DNA from: Pseudomonadota bacterium
GTDB taxonomy: Bacteria > Pseudomonadota > Gammaproteobacteria > Steroidobacterales > Steroidobacteraceae
Assembly (NCBI GenBank): GCA_016704655.1
Contig: JADIZR010000007.1
Location: forward strand, 1,348-65,347
Direction of reading: 5' to 3'
Length of the DNA: 64,000 nt
The position numbers and the translations under genes are program-made. Positions 22,384-40,544 of this stretch are shown here, one piece after another (the stretch's first letter is position 1; each line of letters starts with the position of its first letter). A model generated the notes under the pieces. The model was given only the letters and a program-made list of their open reading frames with translations, had not been told where the DNA came from and searched no databases.

Positions 22384-23737
22384 GTGCGAACTCACTCGAT
22401 CCGCCGGCATATGCTCACGCTGCTGCTACTCACGCTCACCGGCACGTGGCTGGCGTCTGCGGCCCTGACTTACCGCGAAGCGCATCGGGGCATCGATGCC
22501 TTGCTCGACGCACATCTGGCCCAGGCCGCGCGGATGCTGGTGGCGCAGGCGGGCCACGAACTCGAGGAACTCGACTTCGATGAGAATTCGACGCCCGCCG
22601 GACTTCCGCACCAAGGTTGCCTTCCAGGTGCGCGAGGCGGATGGGACGCTCATTCTTCGCTCAGCCAACGCCCCGACGACGCCGTTCGCCGGGCCGGTCA
22701 GCGGTTTCAGCGAAGCTGTGTTCGGTGACATTTTCTGGCGCGTGTATTCGGCAACCGAAGCCGCGCAGGGCGTGGTCGTGCACGTGGCGGAAGACCACGC
22801 AACGCGCGAACGGATCGCGCGACGCGTCGCCCTGAGCGCACTCGTCCCACAGCTCGTCGCACTGCCCCTGCTCGGGCTCGCGATCTGGTGGGTCGTTGGT
22901 CGTTCGCTGCGTCCGTTACGGCGGCTGGCGGAGCAACTCGCCCACCGCAGCCCCGACGATGTTCGGCCGCTGGCCGCGGGACCGATGCCCGTCGAGTTGA
23001 CGAGTCTCGCCGAACGGCTCGAGGAACTCCTGTCGCGGGTTCGTGACTCGCTCGATTCAGAACGACGGTTTACCTCGCATGCTGCCCATGAATTGCGTAC
23101 GCCGGTCTCTGCAATGCGCGCGCAGGCGGAGGTGGCGTTGGCAACCATTGACCCTGACGTCCGCGACGCGGCACTGCGTCATGGCATCGAGGCCTGCGAT
23201 CGAATGACACGGCTCGTGACGCAGCTGATGCAGCTTGCCCGTGTGGACGAAGCCGGTCACCTTGCAAGTGCGACTTCGTGCGAACTGCGTGCGATTGCGG
23301 AACGTGTGCTGGCGGACAGCGCGCCGGCAGCAATGCAGGATGGAAATTCGGTAGCGCTGGAGGCGTCGGATCCCGGGCGCGTTCTTGGCGACGGCGCATT
23401 GCTCGAGGCGCTGGTGCGTAACCTGGTCGACAACGCACTTCAACATGGCGGACCACACGGCGAGGTACGGGTGGGGCTGGTGCAGCATGACCGCCAGATC
23501 CGGCTCACCGTCGAGGACACGGGACCCGGTGTGACACCGGAAACACTCGAACGACTTGGCCGACGTTTTTACCGCGCGGCTGAAGCGACGGCCACGGGCA
23601 GCGGACTGGGGCTATCGATCGTCAAGCGGATCACGGAGTTGCACGGCGGCTGCGTGAGCTTTCGCAATGGCGATGCCGACCGTGGGCTGCGGGTCGAGGT
23701 CACGATCCCAATGCAGGGCTGCGAGCGTTCGAATTAG
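22384..23737 (+). pseudogene. sensor histidine kinase (QseC/PmrB-like) split by a 1-nt frameshift
   Basis: The N-terminal TM and sensor part (ORF 22384..22728, ...AQAGHELEELDFDE) continues in the +1 frame as FRTKVAFQVREADGTLILRSANAP... It includes the H-box FTSHAAHELRTPV and an HATPase domain (ORF 22496..23737). The frame change lies within ~22585-22606. Confidence 0.8.
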
Positions 23738-25755
23738 CTCGATCGGATGCGTGCCGCAACGGCGTCAAAGCCGCGCGCGGCTGCCGCATCGGCTGCGGCA
23801 ATCCCGTCACGGTTGCGCAGTGTCTTCTTCGCACCCGCCTGCAGCAACAGGTCGACCACGTCGCCCGCGCCTGCCTGACTCGCCAGGATCAGCGCGGTAT
23901 CGCCGAACGTGTTCTGCGCATCCAGCCCAACTCGCAATGCGACCAGCCTGCGCACGATCACGGCGTGGTTGCCGCGAGCCGCGAGCATCAGAAGTGTGTC
24001 GCCCGAGCGGCTGAGTGCCTGCACCTCGGCGCCTGCACGCAGCAGCTTGTCGAATGCCGCGTCGTTGCCGCGCGCCGCCGCGCAGGCGATGGGCGTAACG
24101 CCGTCGGCGGCCGCCGCATTCACATTGGCTCCGGCACCCAGCAGCAGCGCAAGGACCGCGGCGTCATCGCGGCACGCAGCGTGCCAAAGCGCGGTGTACC
24201 CGGTGGCATCTGTCGTTTCAGGACTCGCACCCGATCGCAGCAACAGCGACACCATGGCCGCATCGCCTCGCTGCGTCGCGAGGACCAACGACGCGTCATC
24301 GCCCTTGCCCGTGTCGGCTCTGGCTCCGTGCGCCAGCAACACCTGCACGATGCCTGCATTACCCCGGCGAACCGCGGTAGTGAAAGGCGCGCCGTCGCTG
24401 GCGCCATGCTCGTTCGGATTGGCACCGCGCTCGAGCAGCATCCGCACGATGTCCTTGCGTCCGTGACTGACGGCCACGCCCAGCGGTGTGTGGCCCGCGC
24501 GATCCGGGCGCGTCGGCGACGCGCCTGCTGCGAGCAGCACACCGACGCTGGCGGACGAAGACGCGGCGATGGCGACCTGCAGTGCTGGCTGGCCAGCGGC
24601 CGTCGTAGCCTCCGGGTCGCCGCCCCGGCCGAGCACCGATTTCAGCATGGCCGGATCGGTGCGACTTGCTGCGAGCGCCACGTCCGGCCAACCGGCATAG
24701 GCATCGCCTGCCGCAGCGCGAAGAATTGGGCCAGCCGACCTTGGGCCGGGTCCGGCGCCCGTAGTGCGCCTGCGCGCCGGTTGTGCGCCGTGCTGGACCA
24801 GGAAGCCGGTGACCGCGTCCTGTCTTGATTGCACCGAGTAATCCACGGCGCTCCAGCCGCCCGCATTACGCAACTTTGGGTCAAGGCCCGCGGCCACCAG
24901 GCGCTCGGACTGTGTGACGCGGCCACGGCGCGCCGCGTAGAGCAGAGCCGAGTTCCCGAGCGCATCCACCGCGGCAATGTCGGGTTTCGACAGCATCAGC
25001 ACTTCCAGGGCGTCCGCGCGCTCGGCCGTCGCGGCCAGCATCAAGGGTGTGATTCCCTGCGCGTCGATCGCATCGACTCGGGCGTCGTGTGCAACCAGCC
25101 AGCGCACCGATTCTGCAGCGCCCGACTCGGCTGCGTGATGCAGCACCGAACGACGGAATGCGTCGCTGGCATCTTCCGGCAGTAGCGGCCAGAGCGCGGC
25201 CAGCGTGTCGACGTCACCGCGGCGCACAGCTGCGATGGTCATCGACAAGGTCACTGCGGGTTCGGTTGCAAGGACGCGAGGATCCACTTGCAGTGGCAAC
25301 TGGCCTGCCTGCAGCAGGCGCGCCGCATCGGCGTGCCCAGCCGCCGCGGCCGTGTCGAGCCAGGTCCGTGCCGCTGATTCGTTTGCAGGCGAGTCGTACG
25401 CCGCAAGCGCTGCCAGTGCATACGCCGCGCGTGGCTCGCCCTTGGCTGCCGCGGCCTCGAAGAGAGTCCGCGCACGTTGCGAGTCCTCGCCGACGCCGAG
25501 ACCGGCCAGGTACAGGGTGCCCAACAGGTATTGCGCGCGTGAATCGCCGGCCAGCGGATCGGTCGCGAGCCGCCCGGCTGCATCCGCGAATTGCTTCAGA
25601 CGCAGCGCGCTCTTGGCCGGCTCGAGCAGGTCCGGCGCCGCGAACTTTGATGGAGTTGCGGCAACTGCCTGCACTGCGCCCAACGCACCGAACGAACACA
25701 GGAGCAGGGTGGCCAGCGCGGCGGCGCGAGCAGCTGAAGGGTCATGCCGTCCCAT
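23734..25755 (-). CDS. secreted Sel1-repeat plus ankyrin-repeat protein
   Basis: Signal peptide MGRHDPSAARAAALATLLLCSFGALGAVQAVAA. Sel1-like repeats (AQYLLGTLYLAGLGVGEDSQRARTLFEAAA) are followed by ~12 ankyrin repeats (G.T.L..AA..G....V..LL..GA). Confidence 0.8.
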   Translation of the reverse strand: MGRHDPSAARAAALATLLLCSFGALGAVQAVAATPSKFAAPDLLEPAKSALRLKQFADAAGRLATDPLAGDSRAQYLLGTLYLAGLGVGEDSQRARTLFEAAAAKGEPRAAYALAALAAYDSPANESAARTWLDTAAAAGHADAARLLQAGQLPLQVDPRVLATEPAVTLSMTIAAVRRGDVDTLAALWPLLPEDASDAFRRSVLHHAAESGAAESVRWLVAHDARVDAIDAQGITPLMLAATAERADALEVLMLSKPDIAAVDALGNSALLYAARRGRVTQSERLVAAGLDPKLRNAGGWSAVDYSVQSRQDAVTGFLVQHGAQPARRRTTGAGPGPRSAGPILRAAAGDAYAGWPDVALAASRTDPAMLKSVLGRGGDPEATTAAGQPALQVAIAASSSASVGVLLAAGASPTRPDRAGHTPLGVAVSHGRKDIVRMLLERGANPNEHGASDGAPFTTAVRRGNAGIVQVLLAHGARADTGKGDDASLVLATQRGDAAMVSLLLRSGASPETTDATGYTALWHAACRDDAAVLALLLGAGANVNAAAADGVTPIACAAARGNDAAFDKLLRAGAEVQALSRSGDTLLMLAARGNHAVIVRRLVALRVGLDAQNTFGDTALILASQAGAGDVVDLLLQAGAKKTLRNRDGIAAADAAAARGFDAVAARIRSS

Positions 25756-27051
25756 ATTTCGTCTCCACGTGAATCCCGACTCGCCGCAGGAAGTCGGAGG
25801 GCAGGATGCCGCCGGCGCTGACGATCACCGCGTCGTTCGGCAGAATCAGGTGACCGTCCTGGCTGCGCAGCAGAACCCGCTCCTGCTCGATGCGCTCGAC
25901 CTTTGACTGCAGCAGCAGTTGCAACTGTCCGGCGCGTTCGGCAGCGGCGATCCGGTCGCGGTTGCGGGGCTTGGCACGCGTGAACGCGTCGCCACGATAG
26001 GAGAGTGTGACCTGGCCGCCCGCTTCCGCGACGCTGGCAGCCGCCTCCAGGGCGCTGTCACCGCCACCCACGACCAGGACGCGCTGTCCGCGGTACTGCT
26101 CCGGGTCGATCAACCGGTAGACGACTTTGGGCAAGTCCTCGCCTGTCACGTCGAGCTTGCGTGGCGTGCCGCGCCGGCCGATCGCCAGCAGTACTTTCGC
26201 TGCCCGGTATTCCGCGAGTGAGGTCCGAACGATGAAGCCTTGCGCACCATCGCGATCGACGCTCTCGACGCGCTCACGATACCGCATGCTGCCGGCCACC
26301 CCGGTCTTGCGTTCGATATCCTGCCAGAACGCAAGCAGGTCTTCCTTGGAGGTCTGGCGAAAGCTGACCTTGCCCACCAATGGAATTTCTGCCGGTTGCG
26401 TCATCACGAGCTTGGCCCGCGGATACTGGAAGACGCTGCCGCCAAGACTCTCCTGTTCGATCGTCACGAATTGCATCTTGTGCGACTTCGCGGCAAGGCT
26501 GGCCGAAAACCCTGCGGGACCCGCACCCACGATCACGAGATCCAGTTGCCCTGGGATGGCTGTGCGCAGCTTGCGATGGATCGCGTCGACCGCCTGCCTG
26601 CCCTGCGCCAGCGCGTTGCGAATGAGGCCCATTCCCCCCAGTTCCCCCGCAACAAAGAGCCCCGGCACGGTCGACTCGAACTCCGGGCTCAGCAATGGAA
26701 TCTCCACGCCACGGCGTTCCGTGCCGAAAACAAGCGTGATCGCGTCCGCAGGACACGCGGCACGGCACGCACCGTGCCCGATGCAATCCGTCGGACTCAC
26801 CAGGTGCGCCTTGCCGTCGATCAGCCCAAGCACATGGTGTTCCGGTTGTTCCGGACAGGCTTTCACGCACGATCCGCACCCGATGCAACGGACGGGATCG
26901 ATCACGGGATGCAGGGAAGCGGGTCGATCAAGCCCGCGGCGACCGACTGCTCCCGCACGGTGCGGCTCGCATCCTCGTGTCGTCTACGCCGGACGAGGTA
27001 CCAGCCCCATATCAGTAAGAGTGGCAGCAGGTAGACGGCGAGCAACGACAT
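25742..27051 (-). CDS. membrane-anchored 2x[4Fe-4S] ferredoxin-domain / FAD-NAD(P)-binding oxidoreductase; N-terminal anchor is in another frame
   Basis: ORF 25742..26905 has CIGCGSCVKACPE and CIGHGACRAACP clusters, then VIVGAGPAGFSASLAAK and a thioredoxin-reductase-like fold. The ATG 27051 frame upstream encodes MSLLAVYLLPLLLIWGWYLVRRRRHE...AAGLIDP and shifts by -1 near GGG 26921-26923 into ASLHPVIDPVRCIGCG. Alternatively the gene simply starts at GTG 26905. Confidence 0.7.
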
Positions 27052-27256: not shown

Positions 27257-27898
27257 ATGCAGACGAGAAATGCCGCGCTGATCGCGCTGGCGGGTTTTGC
27301 ACTGGGAGTGTTCGTCGGCAAGGGACCGACCGTATTCGAAACTGACAGCACGACCGACACGCTCGAGCCCGTTACCGGGATGGCTTCGGTGCCGGTCGGC
27401 CATCCGCGCCTTGCAGAACGCGGTCTCGGCGATGTCGTGATGACGACATTACAGATGCGCGCCGCGCCTGCTGCCAATGCGTCGGCGATGGTGCCAGGCG
27501 CTGCTGCGCGTGCCAGATCGACGGACCTGATCGCGCAGGCCGACGACCTCCGGCGCCAACGAAGATCCGGCGAAGCCGTCGAGGCCTACCGTCGCGCTGC
27601 GGCCTCGGGCCGCATGAACGCGGATTCCTGGGCTGACTACGCCGATGCACTGGCTTCGGCCGGATCGAGCCTCAAGGGAGCGCCCGCGGATGCGCTGGCG
27701 CAGGCGCTCGCGCTCGACCCGCGGCATCCCAAGGCTTTATGGCTCAAAGCCAGCCTCGAGCACGAGGAACACCACTACCGCGACGCCGTCAGCACGTGGC
27801 GCAACCTGCTGGCCGTGGTGCCAGCCAATTCGTCCGACGCCCGCATCATCGAAGCGAACATCGCCGAAGCGTCGCGACTTGCCGCCGGCCAGGGCTGA
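27257..27898 (+). CDS. membrane-anchored TPR protein resembling the C-terminal (apocytochrome chaperone) part of CcmI/CycH/NrfG
   Basis: TM anchor MQTRNAALIALAGFALGVFVG. C-terminal region is ALALDPRHPKALWLKASLEHEEHHYRDAVSTWRNLLAVVPANSSDARIIEANIAEA. Confidence 0.55.
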   Translation: MQTRNAALIALAGFALGVFVGKGPTVFETDSTTDTLEPVTGMASVPVGHPRLAERGLGDVVMTTLQMRAAPAANASAMVPGAAARARSTDLIAQADDLRRQRRSGEAVEAYRRAAASGRMNADSWADYADALASAGSSLKGAPADALAQALALDPRHPKALWLKASLEHEEHHYRDAVSTWRNLLAVVPANSSDARIIEANIAEASRLAAGQG

Positions 27899-27900
27899 CA

Positions 27901-28872
27901 ATGACTGCACAACGCCTTCTCCGGGAACGGTATGACGATGTCGTCGACGAAAGCGCGCCGCGCATCACGACGCCTGCAACCGTTGACACCTCCCGCAAGA
28001 AAGTTGCCGCTCCAGGCGCGGCAGCCGCCAAGGGAGCGGCGAACCGCAGCCGGTTGCTCACGCCAGCCAGCATCTACTTCATGGCCGTCCTCGCAGCGAT
28101 CGCCTTCGGCATCAACCTGCCGACGTCCGCTTACCTCTCCCCGCAGTCCGGTCTCGGCTATGCGCTCGGAATCGCCGGCGGCAGCGCGATGTTGCTGCTG
28201 CTCCTCTATCCGGTCCGCAAGCGAATGCCGAATGCACGCTACCTCGGGTCCACGCGCGCCTGGTTCAGGCTGCACATGACGCTCGGCATCTTCGGGCCCG
28301 CGCTCATCCTGTTTCATTCGAACTTCAGCCTTGGCGCGACCAACAGCAACGTCGCGCTGGTCTGCATGCTCATCGTTTCCGGCAGCGGACTCTTCGGCCG
28401 GTACTTCTACGGTCACATCCACCAGGAACTGAATGGACGCGAAGCCACGCTCGACGAACTGCGGGAGTTCTCGAGCCGGCTGCAACTGACGTCGTCGGTG
28501 TCCTTCCTGCCTGCGCTGGCGCGGCACATCGACGCGGAACAGACCGTCATCGAGCGCCGCTTTGCGGCGACCGCGCTGCTGCTGCAACCGCTGCTGGGTG
28601 CAGCTTGGGCAATCGGCGCAAGACGTCGACTGCGGCGTGCAGTCCGTGAAGCCATTGCTGCGGGAGCCGACCGTCGTCACGACCCGACCCGCGAATCGCT
28701 GCAACTGATCGCGTATCGCTACATCGACGATCGCATCAGCGCGGCGCGGCGCGTGCTCGAGTTTCGTGCTTTCCAGAAGCTCTTCTCGCTGTGGCACGCC
28801 TTGCACCTGCCGCTCTTCGTCATGCTCATCATCGCCGGGACCGTCCATGTGGTCGCGGTACACATCTACTGA
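27901..28872 (+). CDS. polytopic membrane protein with two His-x13-His pairs (putative dihaem b-type cytochrome)
   Basis: ATG 27901 lies 2 nt after the previous TGA. About 5-6 TM helices. One helix carries RLHMTLGIFGPALILFHSNF (His and His+14). The last helix carries WHALHLPLFVMLIIAGTVHVVAVHIY (His and His+14). Confidence 0.6.
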   Translation: MTAQRLLRERYDDVVDESAPRITTPATVDTSRKKVAAPGAAAAKGAANRSRLLTPASIYFMAVLAAIAFGINLPTSAYLSPQSGLGYALGIAGGSAMLLLLLYPVRKRMPNARYLGSTRAWFRLHMTLGIFGPALILFHSNFSLGATNSNVALVCMLIVSGSGLFGRYFYGHIHQELNGREATLDELREFSSRLQLTSSVSFLPALARHIDAEQTVIERRFAATALLLQPLLGAAWAIGARRRLRRAVREAIAAGADRRHDPTRESLQLIAYRYIDDRISAARRVLEFRAFQKLFSLWHALHLPLFVMLIIAGTVHVVAVHIY

Positions 28873-28890
28873 CTGGACGGAGTCGCCCGC

Positions 28891-30456
28891 ATGCCCCGCT
28901 GGCACAGCGCCTGCCGACTCCTGTTCGCGATCCTGGGCCTGACGATGTCACCGTTGAGCGCCCGAGCGGCGAACCTCGAGACGTTGCTGATGCCCGGGCC
29001 GGTCATCGCGGGTCACGCGAAATACGAACAGGAGTGCTCGCGCTGCCACGATCGCGCGGATCGTTCGCGGCAGGCGGTCCTCTGCCGCACTTGTCATGAG
29101 CCCGTTGCCGCCGATATTGCGCAACACAAAGGATTCCATGGTCGATTGCGCGGAGCAGAGGCCGCCCAGTGCGGCGCCTGCCACACCGAGCACAAGGGCC
29201 GGCCGGCCGACATCGTCAAGCTCCAGCCGGCTTCGTTCCCGCATGCCCAGACGGACTTTCCGCTGCAGGGAGCACACGCGACAGTAGCGTGCACGGCTTG
29301 CCACCAGGAAGGCCGCAAACATCGCGAAGCGGCGTCCGCGTGCGTCGAGTGTCACAAGCAGGACGACCTGCACGAGGGCAAGCTTGGCCGCGATTGCTCC
29401 AGCTGCCACGACGCCGGAGGCTGGTCACGCGTGCGGTTTGATCACGCAAAGACCCGGTTCGCGTTGACCGGCAAACATGTGCAGGCGACCTGTGCGTCCT
29501 GCCACCTGGGCAACCGGTACAAGGACACCCCAACCCAGTGCGCTGCCTGCCACGCGCCTGATGACGTCCACGGTGGCGCGCGCGGGGCCGGCTGCGCCGA
29601 CTGTCACCAGACGACCGGTTGGACCGGCACCAGGTACGACCACCTGAAGACCAGCGGATTTGCGCTCACGGGCGCGCACTCCTCGCTCGATTGCAGGACG
29701 TGTCACAAGACGTCGAATTTCAAGGACCCGTTGCCGAGGGACTGCGCGGGTTGCCACCGCAGCGACGATCCGCACGCCACCCGCTTCGGTGCAGGCTGCG
29801 AGAAGTGCCATGCCGCAAGCGGCTGGACGCCTTCGAGTTTCGATCACACCCGCGATGGCAAGTTCGAGCTGCGCGGAGCGCACGAGAAGCTGAACTGCCA
29901 TGTCTGCCACACCGGGGTAATCGCCAGCCAGAAGCTCGGCACGGAGTGTGCCGGATGCCACCGGGCGGATGACGTGCATGCGGGCAACCTGGACACCGAC
30001 TGCGCGCAGTGTCACGGCGTGGAGACGTGGCGCGGGCATCTGCAGTTCGATCACGACTTTTCGACGTACCCGCTCGTGGGGCTCCACGTCGCGGTTCCCT
30101 GCTTTGCGTGTCATCGCTCAACGTCGTTCAAGGACGCACGGCAGACGTGTGTCGACTGCCACGAGGCGGACGATCGTCACAAGGGCTCACTCGGCCGGGA
30201 CTGCGAAACATGCCATTCGGTCAACGGCTGGAACCTGTGGCAGTTCGATCACGGCAAATCCACCAAGTTCGCCCTGACGGGTGCGCACTCGAAGGTGGCC
30301 TGCGCAGGCTGTCACAAGCAGCCCGCACACCTGGCGAAGCTGTCGCAGGACTGCGCGGCGTGCCATGCCGAGGACGACGTGCACCTCGGTCAGTACGGTC
30401 GGCAATGCCAGCGCTGCCACGTGACCACGACTTTCAAGGCTGCGCGGCTGCAGTGA
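28891..30456 (+). CDS. 21-haem periplasmic c-type cytochrome built from seven c7-like triheme modules
   Basis: Signal peptide plus 21 CXXCH motifs. The recurring module is FDH..T.F.L.G.H....C..CH - ~11 aa - C..CH..DD.H.G..G..C..CH. Confidence 0.9.
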   Translation: MPRWHSACRLLFAILGLTMSPLSARAANLETLLMPGPVIAGHAKYEQECSRCHDRADRSRQAVLCRTCHEPVAADIAQHKGFHGRLRGAEAAQCGACHTEHKGRPADIVKLQPASFPHAQTDFPLQGAHATVACTACHQEGRKHREAASACVECHKQDDLHEGKLGRDCSSCHDAGGWSRVRFDHAKTRFALTGKHVQATCASCHLGNRYKDTPTQCAACHAPDDVHGGARGAGCADCHQTTGWTGTRYDHLKTSGFALTGAHSSLDCRTCHKTSNFKDPLPRDCAGCHRSDDPHATRFGAGCEKCHAASGWTPSSFDHTRDGKFELRGAHEKLNCHVCHTGVIASQKLGTECAGCHRADDVHAGNLDTDCAQCHGVETWRGHLQFDHDFSTYPLVGLHVAVPCFACHRSTSFKDARQTCVDCHEADDRHKGSLGRDCETCHSVNGWNLWQFDHGKSTKFALTGAHSKVACAGCHKQPAHLAKLSQDCAACHAEDDVHLGQYGRQCQRCHVTTTFKAARLQ

Positions 30457-30469
30457 TGGGAAGGCAACC

Positions 30470-33400
30470 ATGAAGCTGCAATGGATCTGCCGTGCACTGC
30501 TGCCCTTGCTGCTGCTGGCTGCGGGCACCGTGTCAGCCCAGGTGACCGGGCGCAACTTTGACCACCTGACGACAGGATTCGAGCTTACTGGCGCGCATCG
30601 TCTGCAGGCCTGCGAGAGCTGCCACGTCGACGCCGTGTTCGCCGGCACCCCACGAGTGTGCGCGGCGTGCCATGCACAGAGGTCGCGCATCGGAGCGACA
30701 CCGAAGCCGTCGGCTCACGTGGCCTCCACGGACAACTGCGGCGCGTGCCACACCACCTCGGGCTGGATACCGGCAGGACGATTCGATCACCTGGAAGCGC
30801 GCGGTGATTGCGCAACCTGCCATGACGGGCTGCAGGCGCAGGGCAAGCCGGCGGGCCACCTCACGACCAGCCAGGAGTGCTCGAGTTGCCACAGCAATAC
30901 GGCCTGGAGTCCCGCGAAATACAACCACTCCGGCATCACCGGCGTGTGCGCCTCCTGCCACGACGGCGTCAGAGCAACGGGGAAGCGGGCCACTCATCCG
31001 CAGACGACGAGCAGCTGCGAGTCGTGCCACACGATCGCGGCCTGGGCCCCGATCAGCCGCATTGACCACACGCAGGTCAGCGGCTCCTGCGCGTCGTGCC
31101 ATGACGGCACGTCTGCGACGCGCAAGCACGCATTGCATGTACCGACTACCGCGACGTGCGACACCTGCCACGTGACAGTCGCGTGGCAGCCAGCCAGCTT
31201 CGCTCACGACGGTATCGTCGACGGCTGCGCCAGCTGCCATGACGGGGCGCGGGCCACCGGCACCGGACCGCGTCACATCAAGGCGACGAACACCTGCGTG
31301 GCCTGTCATTCGATGACGGCATGGCAGCCGGCAACGCGCGTGGACCACGCCAACGTGCTGGGCAGCTGCTCGACCTGCCACGACGGACTCGCGGCCAGCG
31401 GACAGCCGGCCAATCACATTCCCACGTCGGCGGAATGCGACAGCTGCCATGCGACCAACGCCTGGACTCCCGCCAGGTTCGATCACACCGGGATCGCCAC
31501 CAACTGCGCCTCCTGTCACGACGGCACCCGCGCCACAGGCAAGAGTCCGACCCACATCAATACCTCGACGACCTGCGAGTCATGTCACGTCATCGCGGCC
31601 TGGCAACCCGCGTCGCGTGTCGATCATGCCCAGGTGCTCGGCAGCTGCGTCTCCTGTCACGATGGCACCGTTGCAACCGGCAAGAACGCCACGCACATCC
31701 TGTCCGACAATGCCTGCGAGAGTTGCCACACGACCGTCCAGTGGCAGCCCGCCAACTTTTCACACACCGGGCTGACGGAAACCTGCTCAGCCTGCCACGA
31801 CGGTACTCGGGCCACCGGCAAGAGCACGACGCACATCATCTCGAGTACCTCCTGTGGCGCCTGTCACGCGACGTTCTCGTGGCGCCCGGTCACGCAGGTC
31901 GACCACACACAGGTGAGCGGCAGCTGCGCCTCGTGCCACAACGGCACGACGGCCACCGGCAAGAACGCGGGTCACATCGCCTCCAGCACGGCCTGCGCTG
32001 CCTGCCATGCCACGCTGGCATGGAAGCCCGTCACAAGCGTGGATCATGCGCAGGTCACCGGCGCGTGCTTCTCCTGCCACGATGGCACCCTGGCCACCGG
32101 CAAGCCGTCCGCTCACATTCCGAGCGACAACTCCTGCGACAACTGCCATTCGCCGCTGGCATGGCAGCCAGCGCGCTTCGACCACACGGGCATCACGGTC
32201 AACTGCGCCAACTGTCACGACGGCATCAAGTCTCAGGGCAAGCCGACGACGCACATAACCAGCAGCAGCACGTGCGAGTCCTGTCACGCCGTGGCGGCCT
32301 GGAAGCCGGCAACGAGCGTCGACCACACCCAGGTGACGGGAACCTGCGCCAGTTGCCACGACGGCGCCAGGGCGACCGGCAAGGGCGTTAACCACATCCC
32401 GACCAGCGGCGAATGCGGCACGTGCCACGCCACGATCGCGTGGCAGCCGGCAACGTTCTCGCACACTGGTATTACCAGCGGTTGTGCCAGCTGCCACGAC
32501 GGGATCAAGGCGCCGGGCAAAAACGCCACGCACCTGTTCACGTCATCGACCTGCGAAGCCTGCCACTCCGTGACGACCTGGAAGCCCGCGACCCGCGTCG
32601 ACCACGCGCAGGTGCAGGGTTCGTGTTCGAACTGCCACAACAACATCAAGGCGACGGGCAAACCGGCGACGCACGTCGTTACGACGTCCGAATGCAGCAT
32701 GTGCCACGGCACGCAGGCCTGGAAGCCAGCGACGGGCTTCACGCACGACGGCATCACGGCCGCATGCGCGACCTGCCACAACGGCGTGAACGCGACGGGC
32801 AAGAACACCAGTCACCTGCAGACGAGCAATACCTGCGAGTCCTGCCATACCCCCACTGGCTGGAAGCCGGCGGCGAAGGTGGACCACACACAGGTCATCG
32901 GCACCTGCTTCTCGTGCCACAACGGCACGCTTGCGACCGGCAAGAACTCGGGTCACATCGCAAGTGACAACGCGTGCGACAGCTGCCACCAGTCGACGGC
33001 GTGGAAGCCGACGATCCGGGTCGATCACGCGCACGTCACCGGAACGTGTTCCAGCTGCCACGATGGCGTGCAGGCGGCGGGCAAGCCCACCACGCACCTG
33101 CCGACGACAGCCGAGTGCGGCAGCTGTCATTCAACCCTGGCCTGGACACCGGCGAAGGTGGATCACACCAGCATCACGAACTGCAAGGGTTGCCACAACG
33201 GCTCCAGCGCGACGGGCCCGTCGACCAGCCACATGACCTTCCCGGTCAACAGCTTCGACTGCAACCAGTGCCACACCACGACGGCCTGGTCGCCGAACAC
33301 GTTCAAGCACCGCGTGGGTGGCGGCTACCCGGGCGATCATCGTGTGGCGCTGACCTGCAGGAGCTGTCACACGACCGGCACGGATGCCGCCACCTGGCGC

Positions 33401-33610
33401 ACGCCGGCCTACAAACCCGACTGCGCAGGTTGCCATTCCAGCAATTTCAAGCCCGATCCGCACACCAAGTACGGCAACGTGAAGTACACCGTCAGTGAAC
33501 TGCGTAACTGCTCGGGAGCGTGCCACACCTATACGGACTCCACGCTCACGAAGATCTTGAAGAGCCGCGCCGGTCCGGAACATCGCATCACGGACACGGA
33601 ACTTCACTGA
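30470..33610 (+). CDS. giant multihaem c-type cytochrome: 41 CXXCH plus one CX3CH
   Basis: Sec signal MKLQWICRALLPLLLLAAGTVSAQ. There are 41 CXXCH motifs at ~23-aa spacing plus a terminal CSGACH. Consensus repeat is C.SCHDG..ATGK...H..T...C..CH...AW.PA..VDH..V.G. Confidence 0.9.
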   Translation: MKLQWICRALLPLLLLAAGTVSAQVTGRNFDHLTTGFELTGAHRLQACESCHVDAVFAGTPRVCAACHAQRSRIGATPKPSAHVASTDNCGACHTTSGWIPAGRFDHLEARGDCATCHDGLQAQGKPAGHLTTSQECSSCHSNTAWSPAKYNHSGITGVCASCHDGVRATGKRATHPQTTSSCESCHTIAAWAPISRIDHTQVSGSCASCHDGTSATRKHALHVPTTATCDTCHVTVAWQPASFAHDGIVDGCASCHDGARATGTGPRHIKATNTCVACHSMTAWQPATRVDHANVLGSCSTCHDGLAASGQPANHIPTSAECDSCHATNAWTPARFDHTGIATNCASCHDGTRATGKSPTHINTSTTCESCHVIAAWQPASRVDHAQVLGSCVSCHDGTVATGKNATHILSDNACESCHTTVQWQPANFSHTGLTETCSACHDGTRATGKSTTHIISSTSCGACHATFSWRPVTQVDHTQVSGSCASCHNGTTATGKNAGHIASSTACAACHATLAWKPVTSVDHAQVTGACFSCHDGTLATGKPSAHIPSDNSCDNCHSPLAWQPARFDHTGITVNCANCHDGIKSQGKPTTHITSSSTCESCHAVAAWKPATSVDHTQVTGTCASCHDGARATGKGVNHIPTSGECGTCHATIAWQPATFSHTGITSGCASCHDGIKAPGKNATHLFTSSTCEACHSVTTWKPATRVDHAQVQGSCSNCHNNIKATGKPATHVVTTSECSMCHGTQAWKPATGFTHDGITAACATCHNGVNATGKNTSHLQTSNTCESCHTPTGWKPAAKVDHTQVIGTCFSCHNGTLATGKNSGHIASDNACDSCHQSTAWKPTIRVDHAHVTGTCSSCHDGVQAAGKPTTHLPTTAECGSCHSTLAWTPAKVDHTSITNCKGCHNGSSATGPSTSHMTFPVNSFDCNQCHTTTAWSPNTFKHRVGGGYPGDHRVALTCRSCHTTGTDAATWRTPAYKPDCAGCHSSNFKPDPHTKYGNVKYTVSELRNCSGACHTYTDSTLTKILKSRAGPEHRITDTELH
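30690..33240 (+). repeat. in-frame tandem repeats (~138-141 bp, ~18 copies) inside the 41-haem cytochrome gene
   Basis: Periodic TGC..TGCCACGACGGC / GCCTGGCAGCC / GTCGA(C/T)CAC blocks. Copies are clearly diverged at the nucleotide level. VDH..V.G.C and F.HTGI...C subtypes partly alternate, giving a ~280-bp super-repeat. Confidence 0.85.
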
Positions 33611-35986
33611 TGCGCCCAGGTATTCGACTGCTGCTCGCCGCCAGCGCCGTCCTGGCCAACCTGGCGGCCACTCCGCTCCGGGCACAGGGCCGGATCGTCG
33701 AAGACGTCGTGGCGAGCGAGCAACGCGGCTACGTGTCCGTTACGCTGCTCTTCAGCTGTTCGATGCGCTACCTGTCGCACACGCCGGCTACCGATGGCGA
33801 AGCATTGCAGGTCCGCTTCTCGGCGGGCCCGGATTGTGGCCGGACATCTGCCTCGGAACCGCAGCCGCTGCTGGCCGGCGCGGCGGGTTTCGTGCGCTCG
33901 GTCGACGTCGTGCGACCGTTCGGCTCGGAGGTCCAGGTCCGGATCGGCTGGTCGAAGCCCGAAACGTTCGTGCTGACGCCTTCGATCGACGGGCGCCTGT
34001 TGCGAGTCAGGCTGCTGCGCACCGAGACACCGCAGGTTACGGTGCAGGAAATGCCCCAGGGCACCTCCACGTACGCCGTAAACCTGGCCTCGTCGACCAC
34101 CCCTCACACCCGATGCACTCGCAGCCGCCGCAAAGGTCGCGGGCACGCGCACCTACGTTTCGGCGACCGTCGTCGACGAGCAGCGCTGGTACCGCCTGCG
34201 GGCCGGGCCTTTCGTCAACGAGGCGGCAGCCAGGCAGGCACTGGCCAATTCGCGCAGCGAATTCCCGAAAGCCTGGATCGCGATTTCGGATGACGACACG
34301 CTGAACGAGATCGGCACTCCTTCGGGCGTGGCGACCGTGCGGTCAACCGCCCCGCAGGTCAACGCCTCGATGACGCCGGATGAAATCAAGGGAACCCTGG
34401 CCCAGGCCAAAGTTGCGTTCCGCCACAAGGATTACGCCACGGCGATCCCGCTGCTGACGCAGATCACGCAGCAACCCGAGTTTCCGCAACGGGCCGAAGC
34501 GCAGGAAATGCTCGCTCTTGCGCGCGAACGCAGCGGCCAGGTCGCTCACGCCAAGGCCGAATACGAGGACTATCTGCAGCGGTATCCAACCGGCGACGGC
34601 CCCACGCGCGTGCGCAAGCGGCTGCAGGCCCTGGCCTGGGCCAGCCGCCCTGGTCGCAGTGGCGCGGCAGATAGCGACCATGACGAATCCCCGTGGCGAG
34701 TCTACGGCGGCTTTTCGCAGATTTATCGCCAGGACCAGAGTCACCTCGAGAGCGGTCTCGCCGTCAGCGACCAGACGACGCAGAACGCCTTGCTCAGCGA
34801 CGTGAGTCTCGTTGCGCGTCGCCACGGCGAACGCTTCGACTTCACCACACGCGCGAGCGCGGGTTACAGCTACGACATGCTTGCCGACGGGCCGGGAAGC
34901 CAATCTCGAGTGTCGATGTTGTTTGCCGAGTTCGCCGACCGCATTGCAGGCTGGTACGCCCGCCTCGGCCGCCAGGCCGGCGGCTCGGCCGGACTCATGG
35001 GAACGTTCGACGGGATGCAGGCGGGGTACCAGCTGTGGCCCCGGCTGCGCGTCAATGGCTTCTTCGGCTTCCCGGTGGATTCGACACGCGAAGGGCCGGA
35101 CAGCGAGCGCAGGTTCGTCGGCATCTCTGCTGACGTCGGCACGCTCGCGAACGCCTGGGATCTCTCGTTCTATGCCGTCGACCAGCAGTATTCCGGCGTG
35201 ACGGACCGGCAGGCCGTCGGCACCGAGGTGCGGTACTTCCGGCCCGGCATCACGCTGGTCGGACTCGCGGATTTCGACATCCACTACAGCACGCTCAATA
35301 CCGTGCTGCTGCTGGGCACGTTCGCGCTGCCTGCGCGCTGGACGCTGAACCTGAACCTCGATCACCGCAAGAGTCCAGGCCTGTCGACGCGCAATGCCAT
35401 GATTGGGCAGCCAGTGCGCCGGTTCGACGAACTGTTCGGCCTGTACACACCCCAGGAGATCGAGCAACTTGCGCTCGACCGCACGTCGGAGTCGACGATG
35501 TACTCGGCGGGCGTATCGCGACCCTTCGGCGAGCGATGGCAGTGGTCGCTCGATGCGTCGACCATGACTCTCGGCTCGACGCGCGAATCGGGCGGGGTGC
35601 CCGCCACGCCGTCGTCGGGAACGGACACCGCGGTCTCGACGCAGGCCATGGGCTACGGATTGTTCGGCCGCGGCGACGTCACGTCACTGGGCCTGCAGTA
35701 CCAGACGGGCGAGAGCGCGCAGATGCTTTCGCTCGGCGTCGGCGCCCAGCTGCCTGTCGGCGAGCGTTGGCGCGTCGGCCCCCGGCTGCGCCTGGATCAA
35801 CGCAAGCTCGAGAGCGACCGGTCGACATCGCTCGTGTATTCACCGGCGCTGCGGGCGGAGATGCGCGGCAAGCACCTGACGTTCGAGGTGGAGGGCGGGG
35901 CCGAGTTCGGATCGCGCGACCTCGGCACGAGCTCCGAGGACACGTCGCGTTACTATTTCAGCCTTGGCTATCGCTATGACTTCTAG
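33610..35986 (+). CDS. outer-membrane protein: signal peptide, N-domain, SPOR domain, TPR-like region and beta-barrel; a single ORF only after correcting a 1-nt frameshift at ~34100
   Basis: ATG 33610 overlaps the TGA of the cytochrome gene. Frame 1 reads MRPGIRLLLAASAVLANLAATPLRAQG...STYAVNLASSTT, then turns Arg-rich. From the C4 run at 34100-34103 the +1 frame reads PLTPDALAAAAKVAGTRTYVSATVVDEQRWYRLRAGPFVNEAAARQALANSRSEFPKAWIA (SPOR-like). It runs without a stop into ORF 34328..35986, which has a TPR-like segment and then amphipathic beta strands ending YYFSLGYRYDF. Confidence 0.65.
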
Positions 35987-36560
35987 CGGTCATTCCGGCG
36001 GCGATGGGACACAGGTCTGCAGGACCGTCTCGGTCGCGCTGGCAGCTGGAACATTGCTCGCTGCAATCCTCATGGCAGGCTGCGCCAGCGAGCAACCGGC
36101 CGGTCCGCGCGAATACCTCGACGAACGCACTGCTGCGACGATCACGGTGGCTGGCGAACCCATGGTCTTCGCCTGCGATCGCCCCGAACTGGGTGTGAAC
36201 GCGCGCGACTACGTCACACTGACCGCTGTGGACGTCAACACGTCCGGCAGGCATGCCACGCATCTCGTGGGTTACTCCTGGTCGACGCTGGACAAGCGCG
36301 CCATCAAGGAAAGCGACAGCGACTACGAAGTCATTGCCGATGATCGAACGCTGTCGCTGCAGCCGATGCCGGACGGATTCCGCGCGATCGGCGTCAACGA
36401 ACCACCGATTCCAGTCCCTTCACGCGGCGCCCTGCCGCTGACGGCGCCGATCACCCGGGATCAGCTGCTGTTTCTGCGGGACACCTCTGGCGCGCACATC
36501 GTGCGAACGCGCGACGGGGTCACGGAACGGTTCGAACTCTGGCGCGGCCCCGGCCACTGA
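35976..36560 (+). CDS. lipoprotein of unknown function
   Basis: ATG 35976 overlaps the end of the barrel gene. Lipobox AAILMAGCASE. No recognisable domain. Confidence 0.55.
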   Translation: MTSSGHSGGDGTQVCRTVSVALAAGTLLAAILMAGCASEQPAGPREYLDERTAATITVAGEPMVFACDRPELGVNARDYVTLTAVDVNTSGRHATHLVGYSWSTLDKRAIKESDSDYEVIADDRTLSLQPMPDGFRAIGVNEPPIPVPSRGALPLTAPITRDQLLFLRDTSGAHIVRTRDGVTERFELWRGPGH

Positions 36561-36575
36561 GCACAGTGCCAGACG

Positions 36576-36591: not shown

Positions 36592-36648
36592 GCTCGTCGT
36601 TTCTTGCTAATGTGGGCTACGACCGGTTTACCTGGCTGGACCAGAGCG

Positions 36649-40530: not shown

Positions 40531-40544
40531 TCCAGGACGCACCC

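What the first reader, a model, noticed from the sequence alone, without database searches (positions are those of the whole stretch)
27257..36560. Six-gene operon with 62-63 haem-binding sites, a His-paired membrane protein and a SPOR-TPR-beta-barrel: candidate trans-envelope electron conduit
Seen directly: six same-strand genes with 2-18 nt gaps or overlapping start/stop codons. In order they are: (1) a TM-anchored TPR protein like the CcmI C-terminal domain; (2) a polytopic membrane protein with two His-x13-His pairs; (3) a 21-CXXCH secreted cytochrome; (4) a 41-CXXCH (+CX3CH) secreted cytochrome; (5) a protein with signal peptide, SPOR-like domain, TPR-like segment and a beta-barrel ending in YRYDF; (6) a lipoprotein. 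Inference: inner-membrane haem-b entry point, periplasm-spanning haem-c wire, then outer-membrane barrel. This is the logic of porin-cytochrome conduits (Mtr/Pio/Mto, Geobacter Pcc). From memory, a 'PCC3' module was proposed in Fe(II)-oxidising Betaproteobacteria (porin + two large multihaem cytochromes + inner-membrane protein), and this operon should be compared with it. The SPOR fusion, the dedicated CcmI-like gene and the regular 2-haem repeat architecture are not features I know from described systems.
Basis: partly seen in the sequence, partly recalled or inferred. Interest (0 to 1): 0.9.

Follow-up and report, generated by a model that had tools for sequence, protein, structure and literature searches.

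The report
PCC3 porin-cytochrome electron conduit cluster
This is a copy, in an uncultured Steroidobacteraceae bacterium, of the proposed but never tested 'PCC3' gene cluster, a predicted 63-haem electron wire across the whole cell envelope. Comparison with about 170 related loci shows that it usually sits next to an NAD(P)H-type iron-sulfur flavoprotein not mentioned in the PCC3 papers I read, which suggests electrons flow outward from the cell.

Summary
Six co-directional, tightly packed genes at 27257-36560 encode a TM-anchored TPR protein, a 5-TM protein with two WX3HX13H motifs, a 21-CXXCH cytochrome, a 41-CXXCH (+1 CX3CH) cytochrome, a SPOR-TPR-22-strand barrel ending YRYDF, and a lipoprotein.

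The barrel gene is split by a 2-nt deletion. This is probably an assembly error. A 99.3%-identical short-read contig is intact, and the window carries at least three other frameshifts.

The cluster meets every published sequence criterion of PCC3 (He et al. 2017), a proposed and still untested porin-cytochrome system, so it is a new member of a known kind. The di-haem repeats are already described for PCC3. The SPOR-TPR barrel is shared by distant PCC3 loci.

The conserved unit is larger than reported. A divergent pair upstream (23734-27051) encodes a periplasmic Sel1/ankyrin protein and a membrane-anchored 2xFeS + FAD/NAD(P)H flavoprotein. The flavoprotein adjoins the inner-membrane gene in 75/80 Steroidobacteraceae loci, in 35/46 diverse metagenome loci, and in a Bacteroidota isolate plasmid.

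My best mechanism, which is inferred, is NAD(P)H -> FAD -> FeS -> two b haems -> 21-haem periplasmic wire -> barrel -> 42-haem outer wire -> extracellular acceptor.

The parts
23734..25755 (-). Sel1 + ankyrin-repeat protein (673 aa) with an N-terminal signal peptide. It is predicted to be periplasmic and lies downstream of the flavoprotein gene, overlapping it by 14 nt.
   Evidence: Pfam Ank_2 E 2.6e-62 and Sel1. Found in 74/80 Steroidobacteraceae loci and 11/46 diverse metagenome loci. Also present in L083 and L088. Signal peptides are visible in three orthologues.
25742..27051 (-). Membrane-anchored FeS flavoprotein: N-terminal TM helix, ferredoxin-like 2xFeS domain, then a thioredoxin-reductase-type FAD/NAD(P)H domain with no redox cysteines. 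In this window it is split by a 1-nt deletion near 26924 (GGGG to GGG).
   Evidence: Pfam Fer4_10 and Pyr_redox_3. The orthologue in L004 is one 436-aa ORF, and the indel is shown. The closest solved relatives are YpdA/Bdr and TrxR-type ferredoxin-NADP reductases. Conserved motifs are listed. It is adjacent to the IMP gene in 75/80 and 35/46 loci and in Emticicia.
27257..27898 (+). g1: TM-anchored TPR protein (213 aa), weakly similar to the TPR domain of CcmH/CycH/NrfG apocytochrome chaperones.
   Evidence: Pfam TPR_CcmH_CycH 34.8 bits (below cut-off) and NrfG at E 6e-4. PDB NrfG 2e2e at E 0.025. Found in 71/80 Steroidobacteraceae loci. In most distant loci there is no room for it between the flavoprotein and IMP genes.
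27901..28872 (+). g2: PCC3 inner-membrane protein (IMP, 323 aa). It has five predicted TM helices, two WX3HX13H motifs (TM3 and TM5), SGxxG (TM4), and an Arg-rich helical insert of about 120 aa between TM4 and TM5.
   Evidence: No Pfam or NCBIfam family matches. The family holds 3009 clusters at 50% identity.
28891..30456 (+). g3: secreted 21-haem cytochrome c made of 7 tri-haem repeats of about 67 aa. This is the 'periplasmic MHC' of PCC3.
   Evidence: A 21-haem count is found in 53/59 related loci.
30470..33610 (+). g4: secreted cytochrome c with 41 CXXCH + 1 CX3CH, containing about 19 di-haem repeats of 46-47 aa. It is rich in Thr, Ala and Ser and has no lipobox. This is the 'extracellular MHC' of PCC3.
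   Evidence: Orthologues carry about 26 to 62 haem motifs.
33610..35986 (+). g5: outer-membrane protein (792 aa when intact). In order: signal peptide, beta domain, SPOR, TPR, and a 22-strand barrel ending YRYDF. It is frameshifted here at 34101-34105.
35976..36560 (+). g6: lipoprotein (194 aa, lipobox LMAGC) with no recognisable family.
   Evidence: Found in 56/80 Steroidobacteraceae loci and rarely elsewhere.

Best explanation
The locus is a PCC3-type trans-envelope multihaem electron conduit, and the functional unit is eight genes (23734-36560), not six.

Proposed path:
1. A flavoprotein anchored to the cytoplasmic face of the inner membrane oxidises NAD(P)H and passes electrons through FAD and two FeS clusters.
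2. The electrons reach the 5-TM protein g2, which holds two b haems between TM3 and TM5: H125/H302 near the cytoplasm and H139/H316 near the periplasm.
3. From there they enter the 21-haem cytochrome g3, whose fixed length suits the width of the periplasm.
4. They pass through or along the 22-strand barrel of g5, which its SPOR-TPR arm tethers to peptidoglycan.
5. They reach the 42-haem cytochrome g4, whose length varies between relatives and which reaches outward to an insoluble or distant acceptor.

The TPR protein g1, the periplasmic Sel1/ankyrin protein and the lipoprotein g6 are probably assembly or scaffolding factors.

Shown here: gene content, motifs, repeat architecture, predicted folds and conserved gene neighbourhood. 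Inferred: cofactor binding, localisation of g4, protein contacts and the outward direction of flow.
For: PCC3 identity:
- The gene order IMP, periplasmic MHC, extracellular MHC, porin equals Slit_1446-1449.
- The IMP motifs are those He et al. use to define the PCC3/PCC4 IMPs.
- g3 has 21 haems in 7 repeats of about 67 aa, and g4 has repeats of about 47 aa, is rich in Thr/Ser/Ala, and has 24.9 aa per haem.
- The barrel is predicted to have 22 strands, matching the 22 predicted for Leptothrix cholodnii.

Wire geometry: the inner cytochrome has 21 haems in 53/59 related loci, while the outer one ranges from about 26 to 62.

Flavoprotein partner:
- It is present in 75/80 Steroidobacteraceae loci.
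- It stays beside the IMP gene in five rearranged loci where the IMP gene is separated from the cytochrome genes (L029, L031, L044, L048, L078).
- It is present in 35/46 diverse metagenome loci, mostly divergent and 40-630 bp from the IMP start.
- It is present in Sulfuricaulis and Burkholderiales MAGs.
- It lies in the same operon, between an IMP-like gene and 23- and 40-haem cytochromes, on an Emticicia oligotrophica (Bacteroidota) plasmid, at 44% identity and E 7e-137.
- The family shares an N-terminal TM helix followed by basic residues, a GLTEPASLHP motif and two FeS motifs.
- Its flavin domain resembles TrxR-type ferredoxin-NADP reductases and has no cysteines in the window protein.

Positive-inside analysis places the IMP N-terminus, the TM2-TM3 loop and the Arg-rich insert in the cytoplasm (sequence).

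In S. lithotrophicus ES-1, both PCC3 clusters are down-regulated on Fe(II). This fits a role other than Fe(II) oxidation.
Against: - No experiment exists for any PCC3 component.
- Adjacency is not contact. 11/46 diverse loci (for example L081, L091, L093) have no adjacent flavoprotein, and no flavoprotein-IMP fusion was seen among the eight longest of the 150 listed representatives.
- The IMP model has no structural match in the PDB, and its link to the di-haem cytochrome-b superfamily rests on motifs and weak DUF4405 hits.
- The barrel model is of medium confidence (pLDDT 72.8, pTM 0.49). It has 22 strands against 26 in MtrB, and a low-confidence helical insert (residues 592-624) might plug it.
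- g4 has no lipobox, and its extracellular location is only assumed.
- Outward flow from NAD(P)H through a di-haem protein would dissipate membrane potential and conserve no energy. A respiratory role would then need explaining.
- Two of the eight genes are frameshifted in this assembly.
Confidence: 0.55

Rival explanations
1. The published PCC3 hypothesis: the complex takes electrons from extracellular Fe(II) or minerals and passes them inward, and the IMP acts as a quinone-reducing cytochrome b. On this view the flavoprotein is an unrelated or regulatory neighbour.
For: This is the model of He et al. 2017. PCC3 is frequent in Fe(II)-oxidising Gallionellaceae and Leptothrix. About a quarter of diverse loci lack an adjacent flavoprotein. 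Di-haem membrane cytochromes b commonly react with quinones (established knowledge).
Against: Both ES-1 PCC3 clusters are down-regulated on Fe(II), and the authors conclude they are not involved under those conditions. The proteins are poorly detected or unchanged on Fe(II) substrates. The hosts here belong to Steroidobacteraceae, whose cultured members I recall as mostly heterotrophs (my own knowledge, not tested), and to an aerobic oligotrophic Bacteroidota isolate. The flavoprotein adjacency holds across phyla and through rearrangements.
Confidence: 0.2
2. The IMP and the flavoprotein (with the TPR and ankyrin proteins) form a dedicated maturation system rather than part of the wire. They would export reducing power to keep 124 haem-binding cysteines, or the haem iron, reduced while the two giant cytochromes are assembled. 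The cytochromes would exchange electrons with the membrane through another protein.
For: g1 resembles CcmH/CycH/NrfG TPR domains. The Sulfuricaulis cluster lies inside the ccm operon. The Emticicia cluster starts with ccsA. CcmF itself carries a b haem thought to reduce haem before attachment (established knowledge).
Against: The IMP is the most constant partner of the 21-haem cytochrome and immediately precedes it in nearly all loci. Thiol reduction normally uses CcdA/DsbD, not haem proteins. No other inner-membrane electron carrier is conserved in the clusters.
Confidence: 0.12
3. The cytochromes act mainly as an electron store (a capacitor), or as a periplasmic or cell-surface redox buffer, rather than as a wire through the barrel. 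The SPOR-TPR barrel would be a peptidoglycan-tethered anchor.
For: The capacitor idea has been raised for PCC3 and other giant cytochromes. The barrel has fewer strands than MtrB and a possible plug. Foldseek finds only generic usher and porin similarity.
Against: The strict 21-haem length of the inner cytochrome, against the free variation of the outer one, fits a spanning function better than storage. The order IMP, cytochrome, cytochrome, barrel is conserved.
Confidence: 0.08
4. The locus is decaying in this organism, and the frameshifts in g5 and the flavoprotein gene are real.
For: Two of the eight genes are interrupted.
Against: A short-read contig 99.3% identical over 3665 bp is intact and differs only by the two missing bases. 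Both halves of each gene keep long open frames. The window also has frameshifts in a histidine kinase and an alkyl sulfatase. The flavoprotein indel is a homopolymer-length error. Several close relatives are long-read MAGs with similar split genes.
Confidence: 0.05

Closest known systems
PCC3 gene clusters (He et al. 2017, Front Microbiol 8:1584; e.g. Sideroxydans lithotrophicus ES-1 Slit_1446-1449 and Slit_0867-0870, Leptothrix cholodnii SP-6)
   Same: Same four core genes in the same order. Same IMP motifs and length. A 21-haem inner cytochrome built of 7 repeats of about 66 aa. An outer cytochrome built of repeats of about 47 aa, rich in Thr/Ser/Ala, with about 25 aa per haem. A large barrel of about 22 strands.
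   Different: The host family (Steroidobacteraceae) is not named in the PCC3 text I could read. The outer cytochrome has 42 haems. The cluster carries extra conserved genes: a TPR protein, a lipoprotein, a Sel1/ankyrin protein and an FeS flavoprotein. The flavoprotein and the SPOR-TPR arm also occur in distant PCC3 loci, but the PCC3 papers I read do not mention them.
MtrCAB / MtoAB / PioAB porin-cytochrome complexes
   Same: Same logic: a periplasmic multihaem cytochrome inserted in an outer-membrane barrel, with or without an outer cytochrome.
   Different: No Pfam MtrB_PioB match, and no MtrB among the top 50 structural matches. The barrel has 22 predicted strands, not 26. The cytochromes carry 21 and 42 haems, not 10. 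The outer cytochrome has no lipobox. The inner-membrane partner is not CymA/NapC-type.
NADPH oxidase / ferric reductase (NOX/FRE) and the two-component MsrQ-Fre system of E. coli (from my own knowledge)
   Same: Two b haems held by His pairs 13 residues apart on two TM helices, fed from cytoplasmic NAD(P)H by a flavoprotein, carrying electrons outward across the membrane. In MsrQ-Fre the flavoprotein is a separate polypeptide, as here.
   Different: No significant Pfam Ferric_reduct match, only weak DUF4405, PepSY_TM and Ni_hydr_CYTB hits. The protein has five TM helices, not six. The flavoprotein is TrxR-type with its own FeS domain, not of the FNR/Fre family. The acceptor is a 63-haem chain that reaches beyond the outer membrane.
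PCC4 clusters (He et al. 2017)
   Same: An IMP with the same motif pattern. In subgroup II, an FeS protein gene lies next to the IMP gene.
   Different: PCC4 has three small periplasmic cytochromes and no extracellular one. According to the authors its IMP family is not sequence-related to the PCC3 family.

Membership tests
PCC3 (He et al. 2017) | Cluster of IMP, periplasmic MHC, extracellular MHC and porin in a conserved order | tested here: met
   g2-g3-g4-g5 are co-directional with gaps of 18 nt or less. The order equals Slit_1446-1449.
PCC3 (He et al. 2017) | IMP of about 300 aa with 5 TM helices, SGXXG on TM4, and WX3HX13H on TM3 and TM5 | tested here: met
   323 aa. W121/H125/H139, S162-G166 and W298/H302/H316 are invariant in 56 homologues. 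The helices appear in the model.
PCC3 (He et al. 2017) | Periplasmic MHC with about 21 haems (21-27) in repeats of about 66 aa | tested here: met
   21 CXXCH in 7 repeats of about 67 aa, compared.
PCC3 (He et al. 2017) | Second, repeat-built MHC with 22-39 aa per haem, rich in Thr/Ser/Ala/Gly | tested here: met
   42 motifs in 1046 aa (24.9 aa per haem). Repeats of 46-47 aa. T 14%, A 12%, S 9.6%, G 8.1%.
PCC3 (He et al. 2017) | Large beta-barrel outer-membrane protein | tested here: met
   The AlphaFold2 model has 22 strands over residues 363-791 with pLDDT mostly 70-95. Foldseek matches ushers and porins. The C-terminal Y-R-Y-D-F fits an outer-membrane beta-signal.
PCC3 (He et al. 2017) | Direct sequence homology to the type clusters of S. 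lithotrophicus ES-1 and L. cholodnii SP-6 | not testable with these tools
   Those sequences could not be fetched. The single genome scan returned only the 80 closest loci, and the supplementary tables are images. Indirect support: the IMP profile reaches loci with the same architecture in Burkholderiales, Sulfuricaulis and Methylococcaceae MAGs.
PCC3 (He et al. 2017) | Extracellular location of the second MHC and electron transfer across the envelope | not testable with these tools
   Only a Sec signal peptide is visible. No experiment exists for any PCC3.
Mtr/Mto/Pio porin-cytochrome | MtrB/PioB-family 26-strand barrel plus an MtrA-type decahaem | tested here: not met
   No MtrB_PioB hit at E<=0.1. 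g4 scores 158.6 bits on the DmsE/MtrA model against a 192-bit cut-off, from repeated motifs only. No MtrB in the Foldseek top 50.
NOX/FRE ferric-reductase superfamily | Ferric_reduct TM domain (PF01794) with two bis-His b haems | tested here: inconclusive
   No significant Pfam hit. 12/56 members give weak DUF4405 hits (best E 0.009), with single weak hits to PepSY_TM and Ni_hydr_CYTB. From memory these families belong to the same di-haem clan. The fold search gave only Dcytb/b561 at probability 0.14 or less.
SPOR-domain proteins | SPOR domain (PF05036) above the Pfam threshold | tested here: met
   P0001 residues 152-223 score 32.8 bits against a 21-bit cut-off. The model shows a beta-alpha-beta-beta-alpha-beta fold at 155-226. 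Binding to peptidoglycan was not tested.
CcmI/CycH/NrfG apocytochrome chaperones | TPR_CcmH_CycH domain above threshold in g1 | tested here: not met
   34.8 bits against a 42-bit cut-off. NrfG scores 19.4 bits against 306. PDB NrfG at E 0.025. This is resemblance only.

The most novel reading that the evidence does not exclude
PCC3 is not an Fe(II)-oxidation device. It is a three-compartment, NOX-like electron exporter: a dedicated membrane-anchored NAD(P)H-FAD-FeS reductase feeds a di-haem inner-membrane protein and then a haem wire of 60 haems or more that ends outside the cell. This would let mostly heterotrophic and even aerobic bacteria (Steroidobacteraceae, Burkholderiales, Bacteroidota such as Emticicia) reduce distant acceptors directly from the cytoplasmic pyridine-nucleotide pool, bypassing quinones. 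Candidate acceptors are Fe(III)/Mn(IV) minerals, humics, or O2 to give superoxide.
Probability: 0.35. Interest if true: 0.8.

Novelty: new member of a known kind. Interest (0 to 1): 0.55.

Why it matters
PCC3 was proposed in 2017. It occurs in Alpha-, Beta- and Gammaproteobacteria (He et al. 2017), and a related module occurs in a Bacteroidota isolate. It contains some of the most haem-rich proteins known. Its function and direction of electron flow have never been tested, and the expression data from the model Fe(II) oxidiser argue against the original idea.

A specific NAD(P)H-type FeS flavoprotein travels with the inner-membrane component across families, through gene rearrangements and into another phylum. 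This gives a concrete, testable hypothesis for where the electrons come from. It also points to a cultured organism, Emticicia oligotrophica DSM 17448 (plasmid genes EMTOL_RS21085-21110), in which to test it.

The SPOR-TPR arm of the barrel suggests how such a long, rigid wire is positioned relative to peptidoglycan.

For genome annotation, the IMP family (about 3000 clusters at 50% identity) and its flavoprotein partner have no curated model in Pfam or NCBIfam.

Tried and rejected
1. Fetching the type PCC3 loci (ES-1, L. cholodnii) for a direct homology test failed. The cluster-member look-up gave no organism names. Supplementary Tables 3 and 4 of He et al. are images. No paper lists the genes flanking Slit_1446 or Slit_0870.

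2. Structural identification of the IMP failed. There is no PDB sequence match, no Foldseek match with E<1, and no significant Pfam or NCBIfam family.

3. I looked for a flavoprotein-IMP fusion. The eight long representatives I retrieved (P0251, P0273, P0274, P0282, P0285, P0287, P0314, P0374) carry low-complexity, TPR or SPOR-like N-terminal extensions, not a flavoprotein.

4. The promoter and terminator scan was uninformative in this 65% G+C DNA.

5. Homology between the Emticicia 538-aa protein and the PCC3 barrel rests on one local match of 39 aa at E 6e-4, which is inconclusive.

6. g6 has no family and no structure match.

7. I considered and rejected membership of Mtr/Pio/Mto. The 'real pseudogene' reading is disfavoured.

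8. I could not inspect model coordinates. His-His distances, barrel lumen size and the position of the 592-624 insert were therefore not measured.

Full report
**What is in the sequence**

The window is 65% G+C. Between 27257 and 36560 the + strand carries six closely packed genes.

- g1 (27257-27898) has an N-terminal hydrophobic anchor and a TPR domain. The domain scores 34.8 bits on Pfam TPR_CcmH_CycH, below the 42-bit cut-off, and matches NrfG only weakly.
- g2 (27901-28872, 323 aa) matches no Pfam or NCBIfam model. It carries W121-x3-H125-x13-H139, S162-G-x-x-G166 and W298-x3-H302-x13-H316.
- g3 (28891-30456) has 21 CXXCH motifs arranged as seven tri-haem repeats of about 67 aa.
- g4 (30470-33610) has 41 CXXCH and one CX3CH motif, mostly in about 19 di-haem repeats of 46-47 aa. 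It is 14% Thr, 12% Ala and 9.6% Ser, with 24.9 residues per haem.
- g5 (33610-35986) is described below.
- g6 has the lipobox LMAGC, most likely starts at the ATG at 35976, and belongs to no recognisable family.

**The broken barrel gene**

In the window g5 is two ORFs. The 552-aa C-terminal part has 756 detected homologues. The best are 792-aa proteins from Steroidobacteraceae MAGs annotated 'SPOR domain-containing protein'.

A short-read contig (L092) is 99.3% identical to window 32985-36647 over 3665 bp. Its only two gaps are the two bases missing from the window at about 34101 and 34105 (ACCACACCCTTCAC against ACCAC-CCC-TCAC), and it encodes the intact protein P0001.

The window carries other frameshifts when compared with relatives:
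- a GGGG to GGG change in the upstream flavoprotein gene;
- one in a histidine kinase near 22600;
- an alkyl sulfatase split at about 2760.

Several close relatives are long-read MAGs with similar split genes. I therefore treat the g5 frameshift as a probable assembly error and not as a pseudogene. Only read mapping can settle this.

**Architecture of g5**

An AlphaFold2 model of P0001, built from 31 homologues, has mean pLDDT 72.8 and pTM 0.49. It shows, in order:
- a signal helix;
- a beta domain (residues 30-136);
- a SPOR fold (155-226; Pfam SPOR 32.8 bits against a 21-bit cut-off);
- five TPR-like helices (257-345);
- a 22-strand barrel (363-791) with a low-confidence helical insert at 592-624, ending in YRYDF.

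Foldseek against the PDB finds FimD and PapC ushers (TM about 0.27) and ordinary porins. MtrB is not in the top 50.

**Identification as PCC3**

He et al. 2017 (PMC5566968) defined 'PCC3' by these features:
- a porin;
- an extracellular multihaem cytochrome (median 34 haems);
- a periplasmic multihaem cytochrome (median 21 haems, seven 66-aa repeats in their worked example);
- an inner-membrane protein of about 300 aa with five TM helices, SGXXG on TM4 and WX3HX13H on TM3 and TM5;
- 22-39 residues per haem, outer cytochromes rich in Thr/Ser/Ala/Gly and built of repeats of about 47 aa;
- a 22-strand porin prediction for Leptothrix cholodnii.

The gene order in Sideroxydans lithotrophicus ES-1 is IMP, periplasmic cytochrome, extracellular cytochrome, porin (Slit_1446-1449). 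The window meets every one of these criteria.

The IMP residues are invariant across 56 homologues down to 29% identity. The family is large: 3009 clusters at 50% identity with E<=0.001, of which 648 have E<=1e-30.

I could not fetch the type sequences for a direct alignment. The IMP profile does link the window to loci of the same architecture in Burkholderiales, Sulfuricaulis and Methylococcaceae MAGs.

PCC3 has never been tested functionally. In ES-1 both clusters are down-regulated on Fe(II), and their proteins are poorly detected or unchanged on Fe(II) substrates.

**What is and is not special about this copy**

The regular repeats are a published PCC3 feature.

The SPOR-TPR arm is not special to this window either. 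Barrels of distant PCC3-type loci have SPOR above threshold plus TPR (L085, L087, L088, L089). The PCC3 papers I read do not mention SPOR or TPR, and no paper in the library combines 'SPOR domain' with 'multiheme cytochrome'.

g1 and g6 are conserved in 71 and 56 of 80 Steroidobacteraceae-like loci. They are rarely detected elsewhere, and in most distant loci there is no room for g1.

A link to cytochrome maturation recurs in other forms. The Sulfuricaulis cluster sits inside the ccm operon next to a genuine CcmI-type TPR gene. The Emticicia cluster begins with ccsA.

Across 59 related loci the inner cytochrome has 21 haems in 53. The others are mostly split ORFs whose counts sum to 21. The outer cytochrome varies from about 26 to 62. 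In more distant loci the inner cytochrome has 18, 21, 24 or 27 haems, which are whole tri-haem units. A fixed inner length with a free outer length is what a periplasm-spanning rod plus an outward extension would show.

Two genes run divergently upstream.

The first, at 25742-27051 (-), is frameshifted here and is a single 436-aa ORF in L004. It encodes:
- an N-terminal TM helix followed by RRRR;
- a conserved GLxDPASLHPVIDP segment;
- a ferredoxin-like domain with the motifs CxGCxxCxxxCP and CIGHGACxxxCP;
- a thioredoxin-reductase-type FAD/NAD(P)H domain.

The nearest solved relatives of the flavin domain are YpdA/Bdr and TrxR-type ferredoxin-NADP reductases. The window protein has no cysteine in this domain, so it is not a disulfide reductase.

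The second gene, at 23734-25755 (-), overlaps the first by 14 nt. It encodes a Sel1 + ankyrin-repeat protein with a signal peptide.

Conservation of the pair:
- Both genes occur in 74-75 of the 80 Steroidobacteraceae-like loci, as often as the core genes.
- In five rearranged loci (L029, L031, L044, L048, L078) the IMP gene has moved away from the cytochrome genes but stays next to the flavoprotein gene.
- In a second, much more diverse set of 80 metagenome loci (31-44% identity to a distant IMP), 35 of the 46 loci with at least 1.8 kb upstream carry the flavoprotein. It is usually divergent and 40-630 bp from the IMP start. The ankyrin protein is present in 11.
- All about 50 flavoprotein orthologues share the TM anchor, the GLTEPASLHP motif and an invariant His at the second ligand position of the second FeS motif. 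Many have Ser at that position in the first motif.
- On plasmid pEMTOL02 of the cultured Bacteroidota Emticicia oligotrophica DSM 17448, one co-directional row reads: ccsA, an IMP-like gene with the same motifs, a 440-aa 'NAD(P)-binding' protein, a 23-haem cytochrome, a 40-haem cytochrome, and a 538-aa hypothetical protein. The 'NAD(P)-binding' protein is 44% identical to the flavoprotein (E 7e-137) over its full length.

He et al. and the Gallionellaceae pangenome paper do not mention a pyridine-nucleotide oxidoreductase, FAD or ankyrin protein in connection with PCC3. No paper combines ankyrin with porin-cytochrome.

**How it most likely works**

Shown here: gene content, motifs, repeat architecture, predicted folds and conserved neighbourhood.

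Inferred from sequence and general principles:
- By the positive-inside rule, the IMP N-terminus, the TM2-TM3 loop (RKRMPNARYLGSTR) and the Arg-rich insert of about 120 aa between TM4 and TM5 face the cytoplasm. TM3 and TM5 then run from inside to outside.
- This places H125/H302 as one haem-b site near the cytoplasm and H139/H316 as a second near the periplasm. It is the geometry of NOX/FRE-type and cytochrome-b proteins, as He et al. noted.
- The flavoprotein's basic stretch after its single TM helix, and its FeS, FAD and NAD(P)H cofactors, place its bulk in the cytoplasm at the membrane surface.

The simplest chain is NAD(P)H, FAD, two FeS clusters, two b haems, the 21-haem g3, the g5 barrel, the 42-haem g4, and an external acceptor.

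The direction follows from energetics. Moving electrons inward to NAD(P)+ would be uphill in redox terms for Fe(II)-type donors, and also against the membrane potential. Outward flow is downhill on both counts, but it conserves no energy by itself. This suggests reductant disposal, reductive mobilisation of Fe or Mn, or NOX-like chemistry, and not classical respiration.

The closest functional analogue I know (from my own knowledge) is the two-component MsrQ-Fre NOX-like system of E. coli.

The SPOR-TPR arm probably fixes the barrel to peptidoglycan. A lytic transglycosylase gene lies next to the Sulfuricaulis barrel gene.

I put 0.55 on this overall picture. That splits as about 0.9 on PCC3 membership, about 0.6 on the flavoprotein being the cytoplasmic partner, and about 0.45 on outward flow.

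**Rivals**

- The published Fe(II)-uptake and quinone model: 0.2.
- A dedicated maturation and reductant-export role for the IMP and flavoprotein: 0.12.
- A capacitor or surface redox buffer with the barrel as an anchor: 0.08.
- Genuine gene decay: 0.05.

About a quarter of diverse loci lack an adjacent flavoprotein. No fusion was found. The IMP has no structural relative in the PDB. The barrel model is of medium confidence with a possible plug.

**Verdict**

The cluster is a new member of a known but uncharacterised kind.

Its added value lies in three general properties of PCC3 that the comparison exposed and that I could not find in the literature:
- a conserved NAD(P)H-type FeS flavoprotein partner, often accompanied by a periplasmic Sel1/ankyrin protein;
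- a SPOR-TPR arm on the barrel;
- a fixed inner and variable outer cytochrome length.

It also points to a cultured organism in which the model can be tested.

Noticed in passing
window 80-2362 (-): A 760-aa protein with 8 CXXCH motifs (Pfam Paired_CXXCH_1, Cytochrome_C554) fused to C-terminal TPR repeats. The TPR part gives a sub-threshold TPR_CcmH_CycH hit. It is a second multihaem protein in the same 64 kb.
   Followed up: partly
window 2289-4359 (-), about 22600 (+) and about 26924 (-): Further apparent frameshifts. An alkyl sulfatase is split into two overlapping ORFs: Lactamase_B + dimerisation domain, and the C-terminal domain. A histidine kinase is split relative to L004. The flavoprotein gene is split at a GGGG to GGG change. 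Together with g5 this makes at least four in 64 kb, which looks like long-read indel error.
   Followed up: partly
window 20308-21974 (+): A di-haem cytochrome c (Pfam DHC) is directly followed by a cytochrome b561/Ni_hydr_CYTB-type membrane protein, then a histidine kinase at 22496-23737. They are conserved only in the 9-12 closest loci.
   Followed up: no
L089 (Sulfuricaulis MAG) 777-16700; L173 (Emticicia plasmid) 4758-16556: PCC3-type clusters are embedded in, or headed by, cytochrome c maturation genes. In Sulfuricaulis, ccmABCDE-G lies upstream and SLT, ccmI-type TPR, ccmH and ccmF lie downstream. In Emticicia a 1028-aa CcsA comes directly before the IMP-like gene.
   Followed up: partly
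about 50 flavoprotein orthologues, e.g. L004 7841-9151 (-) and L173 8710-10032: The ferredoxin-like domain has non-canonical cluster motifs. The second ligand position is an invariant His in motif 2 (CIGHGAC...CP) and often Ser in motif 1 (CxGSxxC...CP). This suggests 3Fe or His-ligated clusters.
   Followed up: partly
P0251, P0374, P0282 (IMP-family representatives): Some IMP homologues carry N-terminal extensions of 190-390 aa with SPOR-like (P0251) or TPR (P0374, P0282) segments. This is odd, because the positive-inside rule puts the IMP N-terminus in the cytoplasm. They may be gene-calling fusions.
   Followed up: no
L091 10885-18341 and L093: In Methylococcaceae-type PCC3 loci the third cytochrome gene exceeds 3086 aa, with 63-64 or more CXXCH motifs, and in L091 it runs off the held stretch. 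L085 has an 1805-aa cytochrome with 55 motifs and two clusters in tandem.
   Followed up: no
P0411, P0415: NCBI names two IMP homologues 'pyridine nucleotide-disulfide oxidoreductase', although they have no such domain. The name may have been carried over from the neighbouring flavoprotein gene.
   Followed up: no
L174 (Bradyrhizobium sp. BTAi1 plasmid pBBta01) 7270-9424: A smaller module reads: 2Fe-2S protein, IMP-like protein (247 aa, 34% identity over the TM2-TM4 region), class III cytochrome c. It again pairs a cytoplasmic FeS protein with an IMP-like membrane protein and a multihaem cytochrome.
   Followed up: no
window 39672-42218 (-) and 37450-38109 (+): An 848-aa ORF and a 219-aa ORF with no Pfam match. 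The 219-aa ORF is conserved only in the closest loci.
   Followed up: no
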